Shown here: positions 3,911 through 61,449 of the stretch, in pieces
Layout: each line of letters begins with the position of its first letter
How positions within the stretch are numbered: the stretch's first letter is position 1
Source: Candidatus Thorarchaeota archaeon SMTZ1-45
GTDB taxonomy: Archaea; Asgardarchaeota; Thorarchaeia; Thorarchaeales; Thorarchaeaceae
DNA length: 64,000 bases
Assembly: GCA_001563335.1 (NCBI GenBank)
Contig: LRSL01000076.1
Location: 23,225 to 87,224 of the forward strand
Direction: 5' to 3'
The notes under the pieces: generated by a model
The model's input: the letters and a program-made list of their open reading frames with translations, nothing else
What the model was told of the DNA's origin: nothing
The model's database searches: none
Made by a program: the position numbers and the translations under genes

Positions 3911-4216
3911 TCACTGTTTGCCCTCAAGATTCTTGTCCTATAAAGAAGTCGCCTAAGTTGAGAAACATAGTGTATCTCGGAAGAACCGAGCTTCAAAGAT
4001 TAATAGAAGTGCCAGTCGAGTACTCGAGTTGACAGTGCTCCTCCTGTTAGTTTCGACTATCTCTCTCGGTCTGGCTAGTACATTGGAAAGTATCTCTAGG
4101 TCTAAGAAAACCCTTGTACAAGCGTTTTCCACGGAGCGATATCGAGGCGTGGCAGGTACCGTAAAGGTTACTTACAGTCAGGTGTGTGCAGACCTGAATG
4201 GTCGAGGTCAAAACAG

Positions 4217-6199
4217 ATGAGTGATTTCAAACTGGAGGCTCCGTTCAAACCCACTGGCGATCAACCTCAAGCTATACAAAAACTAGTGGAGGGTCTCGAG
4301 AGCGGACTCCAACATCAAACTCTTCTCGGAGTCACTGGATCTGGCAAGACATTCACCATGGCAAACGTCATTGAAGCATATAATATGCCCACACTCGTCA
4401 TTTCCCACAACAAGACCCTAGCTGCTCAATTGACCTCAGAATACAAACAATTCTTTCCTGATGCAGGAGTAGAGTACTTCGTCAGTTACTATGATTACTA
4501 CCAGCCTGAGGCCTATGTTCCCAGTAAGGACATGTACATAGAGAAGGAAACAGACATCAATCAGGAGATTGAGAGACTTCGCCATTCAGCAACTCATTCT
4601 TTGAGGTCTCGAAAAGATACTATTGTCGTGGCCTCAGTTTCCTGTATCTATGGTGTAGGAAACCCGAGTGAGTATGATTATTTCAGGATGTTTCTAGAGC
4701 GAGGAAACCAGATAGACCGGCGAGAGATCCTAGAACGCTTAGTGGCTATGCAATATGAGCGAAATGATATGGAGATCAAACCTGGTATTTTTCGGGTTCG
4801 TGGTGATGTGATTGATGTCTACCCTGCAGGCTCAGAGAATAGCATTAGAATTGAATTAGATGGAGATCGAGTTGATCGGCTCACTGTTTTGGAAGGACTG
4901 TCAGCTAAAAGACTGTATGAACCTAATTGGATTGAGTTGTTCCCAGCTAAACATCACATCGCGCAACATGAAACTATCATAAAAGCCCTTGAGCCAATTG
5001 AACAGGAGATGCAAGAACGTGTTGAGTGGTTCAAGAAACAGGGTAAGCTTGTGGAGGCTGACCGACTCAAGAGACGAACCATGTACGACATTGAGATGCT
5101 CAGAGAGATAGGGATGTGTTCGGGAATCGAGAACTATTCCCGATATATTGATGGACGTGTTGAGGGTGAGAAACCATACACCCTTCTTGATTACTTTCCT
5201 GATGACTTTCTGATGATTATTGATGAGAGCCATATGACGATCCCTCAGATTCGAGGTATGTTCAATGGTGACTTATCTCGAAAACAGAACTTGGTCGATT
5301 ATGGCTTCAGACTACCTTCTGCAATTGATAACAGACCACTGAAATTCCATGAATTCGAGAAGTACATGAAACATGTCATATACACAAGTGCAACTCCTGG
5401 TCCATATGAGAGTAGGAAGAGTCAACAGATTGTGGAACAGCTTCTCCGGCCTACAGGACTTCTTGATCCTGCAATCACAGTAAGACCAGTTGTGGGACAA
5501 GTGGACCACCTGCTAGGTGAGATCAACAAGACTGTTGATATGGGTGACCGTGTCCTTGTCACAACACTCACAAAGAAGACCTCTGAGATGTTGAGTGAGT
5601 ACCTTGTCGAGGCAGGAGTTAAGGCAAGATATCTACACTCAGATATCGGAACAGTCGAACGAATCGAGATAATACGTCAATTACGTCAAGGTAAGTTTGA
5701 TGTTCTCGTGGGAATCAATCTCCTACGGGAGGGATTGGATCTTCCTGAAGTGGGTCTTGTAGCAATTTTAGATGCAGACAAGGAAGGATTCCTTAGGACT
5801 GACTGGGCTCTCATTCAAACAATGGGCCGTGCTGCTCGGAATGTGAATGGCCGGGTCATCTTGTATGGGGACCATGTTTCAACAGCGATGCAGACAGCTA
5901 TTGACGAAACCAATCGTAGACGGGTATATCAGCTTCAGTATAATGAGGAGCATGGCATCGAACCTGAGTCGATAGTCAAGTCGATTCGGGATATAGCTGA
6001 AGGAATTAAGACGCCAGAGAAGACCACCCAGACGAGGCTTGATGACTTTGATCCATTCGAGGTCGATGAGTTAGCTGATTACATCATTGATCTTGAAGAG
6101 CAGATGAAGGAGGCTGCAAGAAATCTGGAGTTTGAAAAAGCCGCAAAACTTCGGGATCAGATTGCAGGTCTCCGAAAGAGAATCGAGGGAATGGAATAG
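4217..6199 (+). CDS. uvrB: Excinuclease ABC subunit B
   Basis: PTGDQP, GVTGSGKT, YFVSYYDYYQPEAY beta-hairpin, DESH, GINLLREGLDLPEV, GRAARN, C-terminal UVR domain (LEFEKAAKLRD). Start at ATG 4217. Confidence 0.98.
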   Translation: MSDFKLEAPFKPTGDQPQAIQKLVEGLESGLQHQTLLGVTGSGKTFTMANVIEAYNMPTLVISHNKTLAAQLTSEYKQFFPDAGVEYFVSYYDYYQPEAYVPSKDMYIEKETDINQEIERLRHSATHSLRSRKDTIVVASVSCIYGVGNPSEYDYFRMFLERGNQIDRREILERLVAMQYERNDMEIKPGIFRVRGDVIDVYPAGSENSIRIELDGDRVDRLTVLEGLSAKRLYEPNWIELFPAKHHIAQHETIIKALEPIEQEMQERVEWFKKQGKLVEADRLKRRTMYDIEMLREIGMCSGIENYSRYIDGRVEGEKPYTLLDYFPDDFLMIIDESHMTIPQIRGMFNGDLSRKQNLVDYGFRLPSAIDNRPLKFHEFEKYMKHVIYTSATPGPYESRKSQQIVEQLLRPTGLLDPAITVRPVVGQVDHLLGEINKTVDMGDRVLVTTLTKKTSEMLSEYLVEAGVKARYLHSDIGTVERIEIIRQLRQGKFDVLVGINLLREGLDLPEVGLVAILDADKEGFLRTDWALIQTMGRAARNVNGRVILYGDHVSTAMQTAIDETNRRRVYQLQYNEEHGIEPESIVKSIRDIAEGIKTPEKTTQTRLDDFDPFEVDELADYIIDLEEQMKEAARNLEFEKAAKLRDQIAGLRKRIEGME

Positions 6200-9144
6200 T
6201 GAATTCAGCAGCAGATAAGAACAATGGAGCCATTGATACTGAGGTAGATGGCCCTAGGTCTATCATTGTTATGGGTGCTGCTGAGCATAATCTGAAGCAT
6301 ATTGATGTCACAATTCCAAAGAACACACTCACTGTTGTCACCGGATTATCGGGATCTGGAAAGAGTTCACTTGTCTTTGATACGATCTACAGTGAGGGGC
6401 AGAGAAGGTTCGTGGAGTCTCTCTCTCCTTACGCACGTCAATTTCTGGGGATGCTTGAGAAACCCAAAGTTGATCTTATGACAGGTCTTTCACCGTCAAT
6501 CTCTATTGACCAGAAGAGCGTGAGTAGGAATCCTAGATCGAGTGTTGGAACAATCACAGAAATCTATGATTATCTTCGGCTCCTATATGCCAGGGTGGGA
6601 GAACCCCATTGTCCTCAGTGTAAGAAGAAAATAGAACCCCAGACATCTCAACAGATAGTTGACCGTATTCTAAATCTCAAGGAAGGTTCGCGTATCATAA
6701 TTCTAGCCCCCATCGTGAGAGGTAGAAAGGGAGAATATAGGAAAGAGTTTCGAGACCTCATCAAGAAGGGTTTTGTACGAGCTCGTGTCGATGGAAAGCT
6801 TACCGAACTTGAAGAGGGAATGTCACTCGACAGATACTTTGAGCACACCATTGAGGTCGTCATCGATAGAATCGCAGTGAAGGAGTCTGAACGAGGTCGC
6901 ATCTCAGAGGCTGTAGAGACCGCCCTTAACATGGCTGACAGGGTTGTCACGATTATAACACCTGAAGGAGATATCACACTTTCAGAGCAATTCGCTTGTG
7001 TAGAATGCGGCATTAGCCTTCCTGAGATGGAACCGCGTATTTTCAGTTGGAATACTCCCCAGGGCGCCTGCCCTCACTGTACTGGAATTGGTGTCATTCG
7101 TGAGTTCGATCCTGACTTATTCATCACAAACTCGGACCGTTCACTAAACAACGGTCTTTTCGAGCTGGATCAGTGGAAGATAAGACGTGTCTTTACCAAT
7201 AAGGTCGTGCAAAAGTATGGGTTTACCATGGACACCCCCTGGAAAGACATGACAAAGAAGCAGAAAGACCTCCTTCTCCATGGGTCTGGTAGCAGAAAGT
7301 TTGAGGCTACATGGGAGGGTGACAATCCAGAATTTGAGGTCCAATATAAGGGAACCTTCCAGAGACCCTTTGAGGGATGGATAGAACGCGCAAAGCGGCT
7401 CTACAAGACAACTAAATCGGACTATGGAAGACGTATCCTAGAGAAGTATATGTCGACGCAAACATGCCCTGTTTGCTTGGGTGGACGATTGAGACCTGAA
7501 TCAAAAGCTGTCACTTTTAATGATAAATCCATCACAGAGATTAACAATCTCTCAATCAAGGCTCTACGTGAGTTCTTCGAGAATGCTAAGATTGATCCGA
7601 GGCTCAAACCAGTAGCAGAACCCATTCTTCGCGAGATTATGGGACGTATTGGGTTCCTAGAGGACGTAGGGCTTGAGTACCTCACTCTCGATAGGTCTGC
7701 TCCCAGCTTGGCTGGTGGTGAAGCACAGAGAATTCGATTGGCTAGTCAAATTGGGTCGAATCTTGTTGGTGTGACCTATGTGTGTGACGAACCATCAATT
7801 GGTTTACACAGTCGCGACAATATACGACTCCTGAAGTCTTTGCTACGACTTAGAAACCTCGGAAACAATGTCCTCGTTGTGGAACATGATGAAGAAACTA
7901 TACGCACAGCAGACTATATCATCGATTTAGGACCAGGCGCAGGCTCAGAGGGGGGTGAGGTTGTAGTCACTGGAACTCTTGATGATGTTCTGAAATCGAA
8001 GAAGTCTATCACTGCGAGATACCTTAGAGGTGAAGAGAAGATACCCGTGCCTGAGCATCGAAGGCAACTGAATGGGCGGTTCATTGAGTTAAGAGGCTGC
8101 AAGCATAACAACCTCAAGAATCTGAATATTCGAATACCACTCGGGATGTTTATCGCAACAACTGGAGTTTCAGGGTCCGGCAAATCTTCCTTGATTGTGG
8201 AAACATTGCAGCGAGAACTTGCTCGACGATTCCACAATGCTGAAGCTAAGCCTGGCAAGTTTGATGAGATTCTAGGCATTGAACAATTGGACAAAGTCAT
8301 TGTCATTGATCAGAGTCCCATTGGAAGAACCCCGCGCTCTAACCCTGCCACCTACGTAGGTCTATGGTCTCCGTTAAGAGACCTATTTTCAAATCTTCCT
8401 GAATCTCTAATACGCGGATACAAACCAGGTCGATTCAGTTTCAATGTAAAAGGTGGCCGCTGTGAAACCTGCAAAGGTGCAGGTGTAGAAGTCATTGAGA
8501 TGCAGTTCTTGCCGCCAGTTCAGGTAACGTGCAGTGAGTGCAAAGGACGGCGTTACAACAGAGAAACTCTTCAAGTGCGATTCAAGGGAAAGAACATTGC
8601 TGATATTCTCGATATGCGAATCGATGAGGCTGTAAAGTTCTTCGAGGGTATTCCCTCAGTACATCGCAGGCTTGAGACCCTATGCGAGGTAGGCATGGGT
8701 TATGTAAAATTGGGACAACCCGCAACTACTCTATCAGGTGGTGAAGCCCAGCGTATCAAACTGAGCAAGTTCCTCTCAAGACCTGCAACAGGGCAGACAC
8801 TAATTCTGCTGGACGAACCCACAACAGGTTTGCACTTTGCAGACATCAAGAAGCTGTTAGAGGTTCTGCACCGGCTTGTGGATCTTGGAAACACAGTTCT
8901 CGTTATTGAACATCAATTGGATGTTGTAAAAACCGCGGATTGGATCATTGATCTTGGACCAGAGGGCGGAGATGATGGTGGTTATCTCGTTGCAGAAGGG
9001 ACTCCTGAAGATATTGTTTCATGTGATAGGTCCTATACTGGTCAATACCTCCGAGGATTACTAAAACCTGTGATTCCAAACAAAGTGTCCTCTATTAAAC
9101 AACCAGCGCCTCCAATTACTAACGAGGGGAGGTCTAAGAAATGA
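6199..9144 (+). CDS. uvrA: Excinuclease ABC subunit A, copy 1
   Basis: EHNLK, GLSGSGKS, EGQRRFVESLS, Zn-finger CxxC pairs, LAGGEAQRIRLA, DEPSIGLH, GVSGSGKS, PIGRTPRSNPATY, LSGGEAQR, DEPTTGLH. Start overlaps the uvrB stop. Confidence 0.97.
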   Translation: MNSAADKNNGAIDTEVDGPRSIIVMGAAEHNLKHIDVTIPKNTLTVVTGLSGSGKSSLVFDTIYSEGQRRFVESLSPYARQFLGMLEKPKVDLMTGLSPSISIDQKSVSRNPRSSVGTITEIYDYLRLLYARVGEPHCPQCKKKIEPQTSQQIVDRILNLKEGSRIIILAPIVRGRKGEYRKEFRDLIKKGFVRARVDGKLTELEEGMSLDRYFEHTIEVVIDRIAVKESERGRISEAVETALNMADRVVTIITPEGDITLSEQFACVECGISLPEMEPRIFSWNTPQGACPHCTGIGVIREFDPDLFITNSDRSLNNGLFELDQWKIRRVFTNKVVQKYGFTMDTPWKDMTKKQKDLLLHGSGSRKFEATWEGDNPEFEVQYKGTFQRPFEGWIERAKRLYKTTKSDYGRRILEKYMSTQTCPVCLGGRLRPESKAVTFNDKSITEINNLSIKALREFFENAKIDPRLKPVAEPILREIMGRIGFLEDVGLEYLTLDRSAPSLAGGEAQRIRLASQIGSNLVGVTYVCDEPSIGLHSRDNIRLLKSLLRLRNLGNNVLVVEHDEETIRTADYIIDLGPGAGSEGGEVVVTGTLDDVLKSKKSITARYLRGEEKIPVPEHRRQLNGRFIELRGCKHNNLKNLNIRIPLGMFIATTGVSGSGKSSLIVETLQRELARRFHNAEAKPGKFDEILGIEQLDKVIVIDQSPIGRTPRSNPATYVGLWSPLRDLFSNLPESLIRGYKPGRFSFNVKGGRCETCKGAGVEVIEMQFLPPVQVTCSECKGRRYNRETLQVRFKGKNIADILDMRIDEAVKFFEGIPSVHRRLETLCEVGMGYVKLGQPATTLSGGEAQRIKLSKFLSRPATGQTLILLDEPTTGLHFADIKKLLEVLHRLVDLGNTVLVIEHQLDVVKTADWIIDLGPEGGDDGGYLVAEGTPEDIVSCDRSYTGQYLRGLLKPVIPNKVSSIKQPAPPITNEGRSKK

Positions 9145-11999
9145 CAGGCTATATCAGTGTTCGTAAAGCTGAAGAACACAACCTCAAGTCAATTGATGTA
9201 GACATCCCGAGAGACCGCCTTGTAGTTGTAACCGGCCCAAGTGGGTCTGGGAAGTCCACCCTCGTCCTGGATACAATCTTTGCAGAGGGGCAGAGGAGGT
9301 ATGTTGAGAGTCTTAGCTCCTATGCTAGAAGATTTCTAGGTCGGCTCGATAAACCGAAGGTTGAGAAGATTACAGGTCTTCCTCCAGCTATTTCAATTGA
9401 ACAGAAGGGCAGAACAAAGAACCCCCGGTCAACAGTTTCAACAAGCACAGAGATTCATGACTATCTCAGGCTGCTCTATGCGAACATAGGAATTGCTCAT
9501 TGCGTGGAATGCGGTCTTCCTATGGAACAACTCACTGCTGAGTCTGCAGCACGACTTCTCCTTGATGAAAATGGTGGGCAACGAATTCACATCCTCGCAC
9601 CTGTCGTCTGCGGCGAGGTTGGAAAACATGAGGAATGCCTAGAAGGGCTTCACAAGAACGGATTTGTGCGTGTCCGTGTTGATGGAGAGATTATGGACAT
9701 CGACCAGGTCGATCTTGATGCCAGGAAGAAGCATGATATTGATGTTGTTGTTGACAGGCTTGAGTTGAATCAAAAGAATCGAGAGCGCTTGATTGGCTCA
9801 CTAGAAACCGCTCTCGAAACAGGTGATGGTAGAGCGATTATTTCACGAGAAGGCACAGATGACTTGACCTTTGCTGAGCAGTTGATGTGTCCAAAGTGCG
9901 GTATACAATATGAGAAGTTGGGTCCAAAGGCGTTCTCTTTCAACAGACCTGATGGCGCATGCCCTGTCTGCAATGGCCTTGGAGTGACAATGTCTATCGA
10001 TCCTGACCTCATAATTCCCGACAACGATATGACAATCCATGAGATTAGTCGACGTATCAATGCCGGAGAACGTTCTTGGTGGACTGAACGAATTGATGCA
10101 CTAGGCGAGCTTCTCGGATTCTCTATAGAACACCGATTTAGTGAGCTCGATGCAGCTCAAGCCGAAGCTCTTATCTGGGGGCGTCCTGAGTACACTCTCC
10201 ATTATATCCATCAGGGTGATGAGTCGACCTGGGAGATTACAAGAAGATGGTATGGTATTGTTCCATGGCTTGAACGAATGTTTGACCGAGGTAAGAGTAG
10301 TGAAAAAGCATACCAACGCTGGTGGGCGAATCGTATTGCGAACGAATTTTCTCGAAAGACTAACTGCGAGGCTTGCAATGGCAGAAAGCTCAAGCCTGAG
10401 AGTCTTGCTGTGACTGTTGCTGGTAAGTCAATTGACGAAATCGCATCCATGACCATTGAAGGAGCGGCTGAGTTCTTCAGGAACATCTCACTGACTGAAC
10501 GAGAGTTCAAGATAGCTGAACTTGTACTAAAGGAGATACGAGCACGTCTCAATTTTCTCCTTGCTGTTGGCCTTGACTACCTTAGTCTTGACAGAGCATC
10601 CATGACACTATCAGGTGGAGAGAGCCAAAGGATCCGACTGGCTACACAGATTGGCTCTGCTCTTACAGGAGTTCTATACTGTCTCGATGAACCTTCAATT
10701 GGGCTCCACCCCCGTGATATTGGCAAGCTCATTGAAACCTTCTATCACTTGAGGTCTCTTGGCAACACTGTGGTGGTCATTGAGCACGACAGAGACACAA
10801 TCACAGCAGCGGATCACCTCATCGACCTAGGTCCTCTTGCAGGAGTGAATGGCGGGCAACTTGTTGCTGAAGGCTCCCCGACGAAGGTCCTTGCTGATCC
10901 GAAATCCTTGACAGCTCAATATCTTGCTGGAACTAAGCAGATTCCAATACCTGAGAAAAGGCGTCAAGGGAATGGTCAGAAAATCATAGTTCATGGAGCA
11001 CGTGTTAATAATCTCAAGAATATCGATGTAGACTTCCCTCTTGGCACAATGATTTGTGTATCTGGAGTGTCAGGTGCAGGCAAGAGTTCCTTAACCTATG
11101 AAACCCTCTACAAAGCTTTAGCCCAGAAAATCAATAAGGCAAGCATGGTCCCCGGCGATCACGATACAATCGATGGTATTGATTACATTGATAGAATAAT
11201 CCTCGTAGACCAGTCACCCATAGGACGAACACCTCGTAGTAATCCTGCGACTTATACTAGGACCTTTGGTGAAATCCGAGAGCTTTTTGCAAAGATGCCT
11301 GAAGCGAAGAAACGAGGTTTCGGTCCTGGACGTTTCAGCTTCAACACAAGAGATGGTCGATGCGAAAAGTGCAAGGGCAGTGGAGTCCTCCAAGTAGAGA
11401 TGCACTTTATGTCAGATGTTTTCATGACCTGTGATGTCTGCAAGGGTGACCGCTTTGACAGAGAAACCCTGGAGGTGACATATAAAGGAAAGAACATCAC
11501 TCAGGTACTTGAACTGACAATTGATGAAGCTCTGGAGTTCTTTGGTGACATACCAAAGATTGCAGATCGACTCCAGACCTTGGTTGATGTTGGGCTCGGA
11601 TATCTCCAGCTTGGGCAACCCGCAACCACACTGTCAGGGGGAGAAGCACAACGAATGAAACTGGCTGCAGAACTCGCACGAAAAGCCACTGGAAACACAC
11701 TCTACATTATGGATGAGCCTTCCACTGGACTCTCAGCTTCAGATGTGCATGTTCTGTTGGGAGTTGTTAACCGTTTAGTCGATGCTGGCAATACGATTGT
11801 GATAGTCGAACACAACCTCGAGATTGTCAAGACTGCAGACTGGGTCATTGATCTGGGTCCTGATGGTGGCGATGGTGGAGGTGAAGTTGTAGCTCAAGGT
11901 CCTCCCGAAGCGATTAGTGAGGTTTGGAAATCATACACAGGTAACCATTTGCGAGCCGCACTTTTTGGTCCAAATGTTCGATATGGTTCTTTGAGCTAA
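9141..11999 (+). CDS. uvrA: Excinuclease ABC subunit A, copy 2
   Basis: Same full two-NBD architecture: GPSGSGKS, EGQRRYVESLS, LSGGESQR, DEPSIGLH, GVSGAGKS, PIGRTPRSNPATY, LSGGEAQR. ATGA overlap with copy 1. Confidence 0.97.
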   Translation: MTGYISVRKAEEHNLKSIDVDIPRDRLVVVTGPSGSGKSTLVLDTIFAEGQRRYVESLSSYARRFLGRLDKPKVEKITGLPPAISIEQKGRTKNPRSTVSTSTEIHDYLRLLYANIGIAHCVECGLPMEQLTAESAARLLLDENGGQRIHILAPVVCGEVGKHEECLEGLHKNGFVRVRVDGEIMDIDQVDLDARKKHDIDVVVDRLELNQKNRERLIGSLETALETGDGRAIISREGTDDLTFAEQLMCPKCGIQYEKLGPKAFSFNRPDGACPVCNGLGVTMSIDPDLIIPDNDMTIHEISRRINAGERSWWTERIDALGELLGFSIEHRFSELDAAQAEALIWGRPEYTLHYIHQGDESTWEITRRWYGIVPWLERMFDRGKSSEKAYQRWWANRIANEFSRKTNCEACNGRKLKPESLAVTVAGKSIDEIASMTIEGAAEFFRNISLTEREFKIAELVLKEIRARLNFLLAVGLDYLSLDRASMTLSGGESQRIRLATQIGSALTGVLYCLDEPSIGLHPRDIGKLIETFYHLRSLGNTVVVIEHDRDTITAADHLIDLGPLAGVNGGQLVAEGSPTKVLADPKSLTAQYLAGTKQIPIPEKRRQGNGQKIIVHGARVNNLKNIDVDFPLGTMICVSGVSGAGKSSLTYETLYKALAQKINKASMVPGDHDTIDGIDYIDRIILVDQSPIGRTPRSNPATYTRTFGEIRELFAKMPEAKKRGFGPGRFSFNTRDGRCEKCKGSGVLQVEMHFMSDVFMTCDVCKGDRFDRETLEVTYKGKNITQVLELTIDEALEFFGDIPKIADRLQTLVDVGLGYLQLGQPATTLSGGEAQRMKLAAELARKATGNTLYIMDEPSTGLSASDVHVLLGVVNRLVDAGNTIVIVEHNLEIVKTADWVIDLGPDGGDGGGEVVAQGPPEAISEVWKSYTGNHLRAALFGPNVRYGSLS

Positions 12000-60181: not shown

Positions 60182-60197
60182 TTGACAATGTTTATAT
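60182..60197 (+). promoter_or_regulatory. Putative BRE/TATA promoter of RPB5 paralog 1
   Basis: TTGACAATGTTTATAT, 15/16 identical to 60828..60843, about 45 nt before the likely start. Confidence 0.55.
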
Positions 60198-60241
60198 TGA
60201 CTCTAGAGGGGCGATGCCAACGCTTCTTGAGGTGCATTGAA

Positions 60242-60799
60242 GTGATAGAACTACCAAGTAATGTAATCAAGACTAGGGGACTCCTCAACCTTCGATCTTT
60301 TTCGGTTAACGAGGTCTTAGAATACGATGACAAATATGTCATGTACCCATCGAGAGAAGCGCAGGGTGATATCCATAAGTATGTTGTCTGGATCCTAAAA
60401 GAACCTAAGGTCATTGGTGTCGCCTTTGTAAAGGATCTTGCTCGCGAGATGGAAGAAACAAATTCTCAACGAGGAATGCTTGTTGGTGGTCTTAGGTTTA
60501 CGCCAGCTGCTAAGAAGATGGCTAAGATATCTCGAGTTGAGCTGGTTGATGGCGGGTATGCTTCATTCGAACTTTTTGAACATGAACTAGTCCCCACACA
60601 TGTAGTTGCATCAAATGATGAAATCAAACTTGTCCTGGACCATTATGGGATTGAGAGAAATCAACTCCCTCGAATCTATCGTGATGATCCTGCAGTGAAA
60701 GTACTAGGTGCTCGACCTGGTCAGGTAATTCGAATTGAGCGTGTAAGTCCCACTGCTGGTCAGAGTTATTACTACCGGTTAGTGGTTGACTCAAGCTAG
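60242..60799 (+). CDS. rpo5: RNA polymerase subunit Rpo5/RPB5, eukaryote-type with N-terminal jaw domain, paralog 1
   Basis: C-domain HELVPTH...QLPRI..DDP...GQVIRIER.S.TAG..YYRLVV plus N-domain EPKVIGV...MEETNSQRGMLV....TPAAK. GTG 60242 follows GAGGTG. Confidence 0.9.
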   Translation: MIELPSNVIKTRGLLNLRSFSVNEVLEYDDKYVMYPSREAQGDIHKYVVWILKEPKVIGVAFVKDLAREMEETNSQRGMLVGGLRFTPAAKKMAKISRVELVDGGYASFELFEHELVPTHVVASNDEIKLVLDHYGIERNQLPRIYRDDPAVKVLGARPGQVIRIERVSPTAGQSYYYRLVVDSS

Positions 60800-60827
60800 A
60801 ACATAAAGCATGCTCAAATTCGTTAGT

Positions 60828-60843
60828 TTGATAATGTTTATAT
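60828..60843 (+). promoter_or_regulatory. Putative BRE/TATA promoter of RPB5 paralog 2
   Basis: TTGATAATGTTTATAT, near-identical to the element upstream of paralog 1. Confidence 0.55.
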
Positions 60844-60873
60844 CAAACGCTTTGAATCGGGTCATCATCACGG

Positions 60874-61449
60874 GTGTTTCCTACATTGTCAGACCTACTC
60901 GAAATACCAGCTATCGTAATTAAAACCAGAGCATTGCTTGCACTTCGGGGATTTACTCTCAAAGAACTATTGGAGTATGATGATAGATACGTTCTTCACC
61001 CAAAAAGAGACACAAAAGATGGGTTGCGTAAATACGTTGTTTGGATTTTAAAGGAAACGAAAGTTGTTGGCGTTGCGTTAGTGAGAGAGGTCGTGAAAGA
61101 AATGGAAGAAACTGAGGCGCAACGAGGAATGCTCGTTGGAGGGTCTCGTTTCACTCCTGCCTCTAAGAAATATGCAAAAGCTTCCAAAGTTGAACTTGTA
61201 GAGGGTAATTATGCTTCATTTGATCTCTTTGGACATGAGATGGTCCCAACTCATATTATAGCTGAGGAAGCTGAGATTAAATTGGTCCTAGAACATTATG
61301 GAATTAGTAAGACTCACTTACCTCGAATTCAGAGTAGAGATCCCGCTGCTCGTGTACTTGGGGCTAGACCTGGTCAGGTGATTCGAGTGGAACGACCAAG
61401 TCACACCGCAGGATTATCCTACTACTATCGGTTAGTTGTTGATTCCTAG
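60874..61449 (+). CDS. rpo5: RNA polymerase subunit Rpo5/RPB5, eukaryote-type, paralog 2
   Basis: HEMVPTH, LPRIQSRDP, GQVIRVERPSHTAG, YYYRLVV. Colinear with paralog 1 over its full length. Confidence 0.9.
   Translation: MFPTLSDLLEIPAIVIKTRALLALRGFTLKELLEYDDRYVLHPKRDTKDGLRKYVVWILKETKVVGVALVREVVKEMEETEAQRGMLVGGSRFTPASKKYAKASKVELVEGNYASFDLFGHEMVPTHIIAEEAEIKLVLEHYGISKTHLPRIQSRDPAARVLGARPGQVIRVERPSHTAGLSYYYRLVVDS

What the first reader, a model, noticed from the sequence alone, without database searches (positions are those of the whole stretch)
60182..61449. Tandem duplicated eukaryote-type RPB5 subunits: possible alternative RNA polymerase forms in an archaeon
Seen: two intact ~186-191-aa paralogs, colinear and roughly 60% identical by eye. 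Each has the Rpo5 C-domain plus an N-terminal domain matching the eukaryotic RPB5 jaw (IKT..LL.LRG/SF; EPKV.GV..VK....MEE....RG.LV....TP.AK). They lie outside the usual rpoH-rpoB-rpoA operon. Known: typical archaeal Rpo5 is about 75-85 aa and lacks the jaw; eukaryotic RPB5 is shared by Pol I/II/III, and plants use an RPB5 paralog for Pol V. Inference: retained paralogs may give two RNAP isoforms with different downstream-DNA or factor contacts, foreshadowing polymerase specialisation.
Basis: partly seen in the sequence, partly recalled or inferred. Interest (0 to 1): 0.85.

Follow-up and report, generated by a model that had tools for sequence, protein, structure and literature searches.

The report
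Two tandem full-length RPB5-like polymerase subunits
A Thorarchaeote carries two neighbouring, separately promoted genes for an RNA polymerase subunit that has the "jaw" domain long thought to be eukaryote-only, and both copies have been kept intact over a long time, so its single polymerase may exist in two versions.

Summary
Two intact + strand genes, 60242-60799 (185 aa) and 60874-61449 (191 aa), are 65% identical. Each has an Rpb5_C domain and a ~105-aa N-terminal domain.

The N-domain is the jaw of eukaryotic RPB5:
- N-domain-only profile against PDB: the top 7 hits are all eukaryotic RPB5.
- hhalign against eukaryotic RPB5: 97.3% probability.
- AF2 models have pLDDT 90.9 and 92.6; copy 2's model superposes on whole RPB5 at TM 0.78.

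Pfam files the same domain under Mrr_cat, but no catalytic D...(D/E)xK pattern is conserved.

These two genes are the only Rpo5 genes found in the genome, and no rpoH precedes rpoB.

Tandem pairs occur in 20 of 28 genomes of the genus and in four other genera of the family. The two copies form separate clades, and dN/dS is about 0.06 in each. Each gene has its own copy of a 16-nt TATA-like motif.

Long-form Rpo5 is common in Asgard: 18 of 25 families sampled. So the jaw is not special to this genome. The retained pair is the unusual part.

Two polymerase isoforms are the most likely reading, but this is untested.

The parts
60182..60197 (+). Promoter-like BRE/TATA motif TTGACAATGTTTATAT of copy 1
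   Evidence: Exact match to TTGAYAATGTTTATAT. The window has 3 matches at up to 2 mismatches, against 0.16 expected by chance. The motif is kept at the same distance from the start in 9 of 9 upstream copies and 2 of 2 single-copy relatives. Promoter function is inferred.
60198..60241 (+). Conserved leader of copy 1 with a Shine-Dalgarno-like GAGGTG at 60229-60234
   Evidence: The stretch 'ctctagaggggcgatgccaacgcttcttgaggtg' is conserved in 9 species of the genus. The transcription start is inferred from the usual archaeal TATA-to-start spacing, which is recalled, not tested.
60242..60799 (+). Rpo5 copy 1 (upstream copy), 185 aa plus stop, GTG start. N-domain 60242-60556, Rpb5_C domain from 60557
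   Evidence: Pfam Rpb5_C E 1.2e-26 and Mrr_cat E 3.1e-5. AF2 model pLDDT 92.6, pTM 0.78. Start position fixed by orthologues and by the 185-aa database call P0090.
60828..60843 (+). Promoter-like BRE/TATA motif TTGATAATGTTTATAT of copy 2
   Evidence: Exact match. Conserved in 9 of 9 downstream copies with 0-2 changes, 30 nt before the GTG start.
60874..61449 (+). Rpo5 copy 2 (downstream copy), 191 aa plus stop, GTG start. N-domain 60874-61209, Rpb5_C domain from 61210
   Evidence: Pfam Rpb5_C E 1.2e-24 and Mrr_cat E 1.9e-9. AF2 model pLDDT 90.9. Foldseek best hit is RPB5 chain 8uhd_E, E 3e-15, TM 0.78 over 200 columns. Docking on Rpo1'' is supported by prediction: 0.78 against best control 0.00.

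Best explanation
Both genes encode working, full-length RPB5-type Rpo5 subunits. Each has an N-terminal jaw domain, which is a catalytically dead PD-(D/E)XK (Mrr-like) fold homologous to the eukaryotic RPB5 N-domain. Each also has the universal C-terminal domain that binds Rpo1''.

The genome has one set of large subunits and no other Rpo5 gene. The two paralogues are therefore most likely alternative, mutually exclusive occupants of the single Rpo5 site. That would give two versions of one RNA polymerase, differing at the lower jaw (downstream DNA or factor surface) and at a few residues of the Rpo1'' contact.

Each gene has its own copy of the same TATA-like promoter but a different 5' end. 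Copy 1 has a leader of about 20 nt with GAGGTG. Copy 2 has a near-leaderless GTG. Their ratio could therefore be set at the level of translation or read-through.

Shown: gene integrity, domain homology, fold, conservation, purifying selection, and absence of another rpoH. Predicted only: docking of copy 2. Inferred: mutual exclusivity, distinct function, promoter and leader roles.
For: Identity of the proteins:
- Rpb5_C matches at E 1e-24 to 1e-26.
- The full profile aligns to human RPABC1 residues 63-209, E 1.2e-34.
- The N-domain-only profile hits only RPB5 at the top of PDB: 7 chains with E at most 7e-4, and no nuclease up to E 10.
- hhalign of the N-domain against 15 eukaryote-type RPB5 sequences: 97.3% probability, E 2.5e-11, 81 columns.
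- The top 34 Foldseek hits are full-length RPB5 from eukaryotes or ASFV, TM up to 0.78.
- Both models are confident, with the same order of secondary-structure elements.

Not a nuclease: no column in residues 30-66 reaches 60% D/E or K. The conserved N-domain positions (RGY, G66, T94-P-x-A97, E107) are shared with eukaryotic RPB5.

Only Rpo5 genes: 2 of 2 Rpb5_C hits in the assembly are these genes. There is one rpoB and one split rpoA.

Retention:
- 20 of 28 genomes of the genus have two or more matches in tandem; so do genomes in genera g16, g24, g25 and g29.
- The copy-2 clade has support 100/99. Copy 1 plus the single-copy genomes has 89/94.
- Synonymous sites are saturated (pS about 0.75). 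Median dN is 0.139 and 0.124, and dN/dS is about 0.06 for both copies and for both domains.
- 25 columns are diagnostic between the copies. Three of them (112, 120, 153) lie in the predicted Rpo1'' interface, and 154 and 155 sit between interface residues.

Docking of copy 2 on Rpo1'' residues 55-443:
- Score 0.78, best of 3 controls 0.00. This mark was reached by 58 of 80 solved complexes and 2 of 110 mismatched pairs.
- Runs agree in at least 59% of contacts, and partner pLDDT is at least 82.
- Like complexes are solved, so the pass may be from memory.

Separate promoters: an exact 16-nt motif precedes each gene and is conserved in relatives.

Precedent: distinct RPB5 paralogues sit in plant Pol II/IV and Pol V structures (7eu0_E, 8hyj_E).
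Against: - No expression or protein data exist for either copy.
- Only copy 2 was put through the docking prediction. Copy 1 was not.
- The two copies keep the same conserved motifs and the same N-domain charge (median +2 in both). No obvious functional switch is visible.
- 8 of 28 genomes of the genus show one copy. In two of these (G001 at 97% and G012 at 92% completeness) an unrelated ORF of about 150 aa fills the copy-2 slot.
- 11 of 16 genera of the family have only one copy, so the second copy is dispensable.
- There is a single set of catalytic subunits, so this is not a multi-polymerase system.
- The age of the duplication is unresolved. Monophyly of all copies of the genus is not rejected (AU p 0.407).
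- The AF2 alignment included eukaryotic RPB5 sequences, which may pull the model towards the eukaryotic arrangement.
Confidence: 0.5

Rival explanations
1. Redundant duplicates. Both copies do the same job in the same polymerase, and the pair is kept for dosage or by drift, without any division of labour.
For: Both have the same domain order, conserved motifs, promoter core and charge. The second copy is absent from 11 of 16 genera of the family and from at least two good genomes of the genus. 81 of 194 columns are identical in all 18 sequences of the genus.
Against: The copies differ at about 35% of residues, yet each is held at dN/dS of about 0.06 across species whose synonymous sites are saturated. 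25 columns are fixed or disjoint between the copies. The 5' leaders differ consistently. Pure redundancy rarely lasts that long; this last point is general knowledge, not tested here.
Confidence: 0.27
2. One copy has left the polymerase. It acts as a free factor, for example a competitor or decoy at the Rpo1'' site or a DNA or factor-binding regulator. This would resemble a TFS paralogue in Sulfolobus that became an RNAP inhibitor.
For: Diagnostic substitutions cluster next to the predicted Rpo1'' contact: residues 153-155 are Y-R-D in copy 1 and Q-S-R in copy 2. The TFS4 precedent is mentioned in a passage of PMC13545438.
Against: All invariant C-domain residues (H121, V124, P125, H127, D156, P157, G163, R174, S176, G180, Y185, R186) are present in both copies. 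Copy 2, the copy unlike the single-copy type, is predicted to dock on Rpo1''. That pass may be from memory of solved complexes.
Confidence: 0.15
3. The N-domain is an active Mrr-type nuclease fused to RpoH, unrelated in function to the eukaryotic jaw.
For: Pfam Mrr_cat matches above the cut-off (38.1 and 24.5 bits against 21), in 16 of 16 N-domains. The nearest Atlas structures are bacterial Mrr_cat domains, TM 0.75-0.81.
Against: No conserved acidic or lysine column lies where D...(D/E)xK should be. NA-iREase1, an inactive-endonuclease family, also matches 16 of 16. The N-domain-only searches find RPB5, not nucleases. At least 15 of 120 family members match both Mrr_cat and Rpb5_N.
Confidence: 0.04
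4. Assembly artefact: two strains collapsed into an apparent tandem pair.
For: The source is a draft assembly with 5.8% contamination.
Against: The same tandem order and spacing lie on single contigs in 37 genomes, including a one-contig genome (G073). The flanking genes are conserved. The two copies form separate clades.
Confidence: 0.01

Closest known systems
Eukaryotic RPB5 (RPABC1), shared by Pol I, II and III
   Same: Two-domain architecture, jaw plus Rpb5_C. The whole chain superposes at TM 0.78. The sequences are colinear. They share the conserved RGY, G, TPxA(K) and E positions.
   Different: The archaeal jaw lacks an insertion of about 16 columns that eukaryotes have after the first helix. 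It is about 20 aa shorter. It scores for Pfam Mrr_cat and not for Rpb5_N. It serves a single polymerase.
Classical archaeal subunit H / Rpo5 (Pyrococcus, Sulfolobus, Methanocaldococcus; 77-84 aa)
   Same: The C-terminal domain is 36-50% identical, with rmsd 1.5 A. It is expected to bind Rpo1''. Passages of PMC2847245 state that H is strongly associated with A''.
   Different: The classical subunit has no N-terminal domain and its gene sits directly upstream of rpoB. Here the gene is long, duplicated, and on a different contig from rpoB, the only one found.
Plant RPB5 paralogues (NRPB5/NRPD5 in Pol II/IV; NRPE5 in Pol V)
   Same: There is more than one RPB5-type gene in one genome. Distinct paralogues are seen in distinct polymerase structures (7eu0_E, 8hyj_E).
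   Different: Plants have separate catalytic subunits for each polymerase. This genome has one rpoB and one rpoA. The duplication is independent and confined to one Thorarchaeal family.
Mrr_cat / PD-(D/E)XK restriction endonuclease domains
   Same: The fold is the same (helix, four strands, helix, strand, helix, strand), and Pfam matches above the cut-off.
   Different: The catalytic residues are not conserved. The domain is fused to an RNAP subunit domain.

Membership tests
Rpo5/RPB5 (RNA_pol_Rpb5_C, PF01191) | C-terminal domain scores above Pfam's gathering cut-off | tested here: met
   92.8 and 86.3 bits against a cut-off of 23.5.
Rpo5/RPB5 (RNA_pol_Rpb5_C, PF01191) | Invariant core residues (HxLVPxH, DP, G, R-S, G, YR) | tested here: met
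   All invariant columns of A1 and A3 are present in both copies.
Rpo5/RPB5 (RNA_pol_Rpb5_C, PF01191) | Binds the C-terminal part of the largest subunit (Rpo1''/Rpb1) | tested here: inconclusive
   Prediction only, and only for copy 2. Score 0.78 against best control 0.00; the mark was reached by 58 of 80 solved and 2 of 110 mismatched pairs; contacts agree in at least 59%; partner pLDDT at least 82. The pass may be from memory of solved RNAPs. Copy 1 was not run.
Rpo5/RPB5 (RNA_pol_Rpb5_C, PF01191) | Present in the purified RNA polymerase | not testable with these tools
   Needs biochemistry on a Thorarchaeote or a reconstituted enzyme.
Full-length (eukaryote-type) RPB5 with jaw domain | Matches the Pfam RNA_pol_Rpb5_N model (PF03871) | tested here: not met
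   0 of 16 N-domains match at E up to 10. 66 of 120 members of the wider family do match.
Full-length (eukaryote-type) RPB5 with jaw domain | N-domain homologous to the RPB5 jaw by profile methods | tested here: met
   hhalign 97.3%, E 2.5e-11. N-only HMM against PDB finds human RPB5 at 2.9e-5 and Arabidopsis NRPB5A at 7e-4.
Full-length (eukaryote-type) RPB5 with jaw domain | Two-domain fold with the same mutual arrangement | tested here: met
   Foldseek TM 0.78 over 200 columns to 8uhd_E. The top 34 hits are full-length RPB5. Caveat: eukaryotic sequences were in the AF2 alignment.
Full-length (eukaryote-type) RPB5 with jaw domain | Helical insertion after the first helix of the jaw | tested here: not met
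   There is a 16-column gap in the archaeal profile against the eukaryotic one.
Mrr_cat / PD-(D/E)XK nucleases | Pfam Mrr_cat above the cut-off, and the core fold | tested here: met
   38.1 and 24.5 bits against 21. Atlas structures TM 0.75-0.81.
Mrr_cat / PD-(D/E)XK nucleases | Conserved catalytic D...(D/E)xK residues | tested here: not met
   No column of residues 30-66 has D/E or K in 60% or more of 120 sequences. The only invariant N-domain columns of A1 are R25, G66 and T94.
Polymerase-specific RPB5 paralogues (plant type) | Two or more RPB5 genes in one genome | tested here: met
Polymerase-specific RPB5 paralogues (plant type) | Separate sets of catalytic subunits for the paralogues to join | tested here: not met
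   One PF00562 hit (rpoB) and one rpoA'/A'' pair in the 87.7%-complete assembly.

The most novel reading that the evidence does not exclude
Thorarchaeota of this family run one catalytic core with two interchangeable jaw subunits, which gives two polymerase forms with different promoter, factor or condition preferences. This would be an archaeal, independent case of polymerase diversification by subunit paralogy.

In addition, the 'eukaryote-specific' RPB5 jaw would be an archaeal invention: a dead Mrr-like nuclease fused to subunit H. It is already present across most Asgard families, so eukaryotes inherited it rather than invented it.
Probability: 0.35. Interest if true: 0.8.

Novelty: new variant of a known kind. 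Interest (0 to 1): 0.62.

Why it matters
Papers on archaeal transcription describe the RPB5 N-terminal domain as unique to eukaryotic polymerases. Passages of PMC2847245 say so, and the 2012 PD-(D/E)XK survey lists Rpb5_N as Eukaryota only.

Here the domain is an ordinary part of Rpo5 in most Asgard families sampled. That moves its origin before eukaryogenesis and ties it to an inactivated Mrr-like nuclease.

The retained tandem pair offers a simple, testable case of subunit paralogy in an archaeal RNA polymerase. I found no report of either point in eight full-text searches. Subscription papers and supplementary tables of eukaryotic signature proteins could not be checked.

Tried and rejected
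- Expression: the look-up of sequencing runs (kind rna) listed no RNA holder.
The Atlas labels (Bathyarchaeota, Nucleocytoviricota) are leads only.
- Charge or pI difference between the copies: none. N-domain median net charge is +2 in both.
- Remnant of copy 2 in the single-copy genomes of the genus: none found by tblastn at E up to 10 or by an HMM on six frames. An unrelated ORF lies there.
- Single or multiple origin of the duplication is not resolved. The deep nodes of the 53-row tree are weak (82/70 for the cluster that holds all 17 downstream copies, 3 upstream copies and 1 single). The AU test does not reject monophyly of all 20 rows of the genus (p 0.407).
- Rows left out of the 53-row tree: L005 and L007 (long, oddly composed outgroups), and the short forms L006, L011 and L016.
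- dN/dS used Nei-Gojobori on 36 pairs per copy. Only 16 and 18 pairs gave a finite dS because synonymous sites are saturated.
- 'TPSA motif' of RPB5 as a downstream-DNA contact is recalled from memory. The search for it found 0 papers, so no claim is built on it.
- Rfam scan of the window: no match.
Full report
**What is there.** Two + strand ORFs lie at the reported place. Copy 2 runs 60874-61449 (191 aa, GTG start). Copy 1 was listed from a TTG at 60182 (205 aa). In nine related species the protein begins M-I-E-L-P at the position of the window's GTG at 60242. The public gene call for the window's own protein is 185 aa (P0090). The TTG at 60182 is also the first base of a conserved promoter-like motif. 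I therefore take copy 1 as 60242-60799 (185 aa). The two proteins are 65% identical over 190 residues without gaps, E 1e-94. Source names of close homologues read 'DNA-directed RNA polymerase subunit H', Candidatus Thorarchaeota or Promethearchaeota.

**Domains.** Both copies match Pfam Rpb5_C (92.8 and 86.3 bits, cut-off 23.5). In their first ~110 residues both match Mrr_cat (24.5 and 38.1 bits, cut-off 21). Neither matches Rpb5_N at E up to 1.

**Is the N-domain the RPB5 jaw?** Several independent tests say yes.
- A profile of 16 full-length relatives aligns to human RPABC1 from residue 63 to 209, that is through the second half of the jaw and the C-domain (E 1.2e-34).
- A profile of the N-domains alone finds eukaryotic RPB5 as its best seven PDB hits (human 2.9e-5, Drosophila 1e-4, Arabidopsis NRPB5A 7e-4). 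It finds no nuclease up to E 10.
- hhalign of the N-domain profile against 15 eukaryote-type RPB5 sequences gives 97.3% probability and E 2.5e-11 over 81 columns. Eukaryotes carry a 16-column insertion after the first helix.
- AlphaFold2 with a 120-row alignment gives pLDDT 90.9 for copy 2 and 92.6 for copy 1, with the same order of elements.
- The top 34 Foldseek hits in PDB are full-length RPB5 of eukaryotes or ASFV, with TM up to 0.78 over 200 columns. Short archaeal subunit H follows, and the first nuclease (EndoMS) is at rank 50. The alignment given to AlphaFold2 held eukaryotic sequences, which may favour this arrangement.

**Is it also Mrr-like?** It is.
- Mrr_cat matches 16 of 16 N-domains. 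So does NA-iREase1, a family of inactive endonuclease domains.
- Of 120 family members, 69 match Mrr_cat and 66 match Rpb5_N, so at least 15 match both.
- The nearest Atlas structures are bacterial Mrr_cat domains (TM 0.75-0.81). The nearest clusters by sequence features are eukaryotic Rpb5_N (0.86; below 0.9, so a lead only).

**Is it a nuclease?** No column where the D...(D/E)xK residues should lie is conserved. In residues 30-66 the highest D/E share is 56% and the highest K share is 42%. The conserved positions are R25-G26-Y/F27, G66, T94, A97 and E107, and eukaryotic RPB5 shares them. The domain is thus an inactivated PD-(D/E)XK fold and the homologue of the jaw. The 2012 survey of that superfamily already lists Rpb5_N as a member, with Eukaryota as its range (passages of PMC3424549).

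**Genomic setting.** A six-frame search of the whole assembly (3.54 Mb, 119 contigs, 87.7% complete) finds Rpb5_C only in these two genes. The one rpoB lies on another contig and is followed by rpoA'. The 1.16 kb upstream of rpoB holds no frame of 70 aa or more on that strand, and the next gene is divergent. rpoA is split; rpoA'' encodes 443 aa. Neighbours of the pair are unrelated to transcription: a T2SSF-type membrane protein, an RHH protein, a MoCF_biosynth protein and an HD-domain protein. The order 141-aa gene, Rpo5 (one or two copies), 258-aa gene is kept across the family.

**Promoters.** Each gene is preceded by an exact copy of TTGAYAATGTTTATAT, at 60182-60197 and 60828-60843. The window has only one further match, with two mismatches, and 0.16 matches are expected by chance. 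The motif and its distance to the start are kept in 9 of 9 upstream copies, 2 of 2 single copies and 9 of 9 downstream copies. Copy 1 has a conserved 44-nt spacer with GAGGTG seven bases before the start. Copy 2 has 30 nt between the motif and its GTG. With the usual archaeal TATA-to-start distance (recalled, not tested), copy 1 would have a leader of about 20 nt and copy 2 almost none. No run of T separates the genes, so read-through from copy 1 into copy 2 is possible. This is inference.

**Spread of the duplication.** In the order, 72 of 87 genomes have a match and 37 have two or more, always about 650 bp apart on one strand.
- In the window's genus, 20 of 28 genomes have two or more matches and 8 have one.
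- Of those 8, three hits touch a contig end (G011, G016, G023).
- Two (G001 at 97% and G012 at 92% completeness) carry an unrelated ORF of about 150 aa in the copy-2 slot, with no remnant of copy 2.
- The other three (G006, G017, G067) were not examined.
- Pairs also occur in genera g16 (1 of 1), g24 (2 of 2), g25 (10 of 17) and g29 (4 of 7).
- Eleven other genera of the family and the one genome of the sister family have single genes.
- Outside this family, two matches per genome appear only in family f14, where the frames are 465-475 aa.

**Age and selection.**
- In a tree of the genus with outgroups, copy 2 is a clade (91/88), and copy 1 groups with the single-copy genomes (81/79).
- In the 53-row family tree the genus's copy-2 clade has support 100/99, and copy 1 plus singles has 89/94.
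- In g1, g24 and g29 the two copies lie in separate, supported groups. In g16 the upstream copy sits unresolved at the base, apart from the downstream copy. In g25 both copies lie in the same weak cluster.
- All 17 downstream copies fall in one weak cluster (82/70) that also holds the g25 upstream copies and one single.
- A tree that forces all 20 rows of the genus together is not rejected (AU p 0.407). One old duplication with losses and several independent tandem duplications both remain open.
- Within the genus, synonymous sites are saturated (median pS 0.75 and 0.74). Median dN is 0.139 (copy 1) and 0.124 (copy 2).
- Where dS is finite (16 and 18 of 36 pairs), dN/dS is about 0.06. It is 0.03-0.07 for each domain taken alone.
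- Both copies, jaw included, are therefore under strong constraint.

**Differences between the copies.** Among nine pairs of the genus, 81 of 194 columns are identical in all 18 sequences, 8 are fixed differences, and 25 have disjoint residue sets. Sixteen of the 25 are in the jaw and 9 in the C-domain. Copy 2 has a 7-residue N-terminal extension and keeps R-G-F. Copy 1 has R-S-F. Before the invariant D-P, copy 1 reads Y-R-D and copy 2 reads Q-S-R. The single-copy genomes share the copy-1 state at most diagnostic sites. Charge does not differ.

**Docking.** One prediction was allowed. I ran Rpo1'' (residues 55-443, no alignment) with copy 2 (120-row alignment).
- The score is 0.78 and the best of 3 controls is 0.00. 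This mark was reached by 58 of 80 solved complexes and 2 of 110 mismatched pairs.
- Runs agree in at least 59% of contacts, and the partner's pLDDT is at least 82.
- The interface uses residues 112-127, 150-158, 172, 177 and 184-189 of copy 2. That is the C-domain, as in solved archaeal polymerases, so the pass may be from memory.
- Three diagnostic columns (112, 120, 153) lie in this interface, and 154 and 155 sit inside it in sequence.
- Copy 1 was not run.

**How common is the long form?** In 201 Asgard genomes of at least 85% completeness, 195 have a match.
- Matches covering about positions 3-184 of the profile occur in 17 of the 25 families sampled: f1, f2, f4, f5, f6, f7, f12, f14, f15, f18, f19, f20, f21, f23, f25, f26, f27.
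- Family f24 has a partial N-domain in 321-457-aa frames. That gives the count of 18 of 25.
- Seven families have only weak matches (E 1e-19 to 1e-33): f3, f8, f9 (49 of 51 genomes), f13, f16, f17, f22.
- For f3, f8, f9 and f13, one search showed open frames of 81-125 aa, which are short forms. For f16, f17 and f22 the short form is inferred from the E-values alone, because their rows were not listed.
- add f10 (long) and f11 (C-domain match only).
- The library of 1.84 billion representatives holds 7365 hits at E up to 1e-3. Many are archaeal-type long forms of 176-196 aa, and eukaryotic RPB5 aligns from profile position about 30 onwards.
- Atlas clusters with Rpb5_C plus Mrr_cat are labelled Bathyarchaeota and Nucleocytoviricota (leads only).

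**Reading.** The jaw is an archaeal feature that is widespread in Asgard. What is particular to this locus is the retained tandem pair. The genome shows one catalytic core and no other Rpo5. Both proteins keep every invariant residue, are constrained in both domains, and have their own promoter copies. The best reading is two alternative occupants of the one Rpo5 site (confidence 0.5). Redundancy (0.27) and a non-polymerase role for one copy (0.15) remain open. An active nuclease (0.04) and an assembly artefact (0.01) are unlikely.

**Literature.**
- I read passages of PMC13257274, PMC7289017, PMC10833476, PMC3424549, PMC13556214, PMC13545438 and PMC2847245. Other papers I saw only in search listings.
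- None of the passages reports a jaw-bearing Rpo5 in archaea or a duplicated rpoH in Thorarchaeota.
- PMC2847245 states that the Rpb5 N-terminal domain is unique to eukaryotic polymerases and that subunit H is needed for open-complex formation.
- PMC10833476 notes that the conserved core of the cluster in Asgard genomes is rpoA1-rpoA2-L30e-nusA-S12, which has no rpoH.
- Eight searches found nothing more. Subscription papers and all supplements were out of reach.

Noticed in passing
window 4184-11999 (+): uvrB is followed by two tandem uvrA paralogues of 981 and 952 aa, each with UvrA_inter and UvrA_DNA-bind domains. They lie in the only stretch of the window with raised G+C (0.45-0.47 against about 0.41). 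This may be a bacterial-type excision-repair island, and it is a second tandem duplication in the window.
   Followed up: partly
P0155 (481 aa), P0156 (436 aa), P0163 (293 aa), P0167 (378 aa); genomes G039, G120, G176 (family f14; 465-475-aa frames in G039 and G120): Some Asgard Rpo5 proteins carry two or three Mrr-like or jaw-like repeats before a single Rpb5_C domain. These are multi-jaw fusions rather than separate paralogues.
   Followed up: partly
P0159 (561 aa): This is a long-form Rpo5 whose Rpb5_C domain is interrupted. Rpb5_C matches in two stretches, and a Cpn60_TCP1-like segment lies at residues 401-516. It could be an insertion, a fusion or an assembly or gene-call artefact.
   Followed up: no
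L019:1735-2508 and L021:712-1488: In the two single-copy genomes examined of the genus (G012, G001), the slot of Rpo5 copy 2 holds an unrelated, conserved ORF of about 150 aa with a hydrophobic N-terminal part. In single-copy genera the Rpo5 gene abuts the 258-aa neighbour directly.
   Followed up: partly
L024:5654-6814 (own genome, contig C69): A 1.16-kb stretch without a convincing ORF lies between a divergent 1192-aa acidic, low-complexity protein gene and rpoB. This is where other archaea have rpoH.
   Followed up: no
L045:1315-2643 (-), own genome contig C24: Rpo1'' starts with a lysine/serine/threonine-rich low-complexity extension of about 50 residues.
   Followed up: no
L003:1195-1848 and L004:1399-2025 (family f7): The long-form Rpo5 of this family carries an extra acidic C-terminal tail of about 25-35 residues ending in W-E-E-L.
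   Followed up: no
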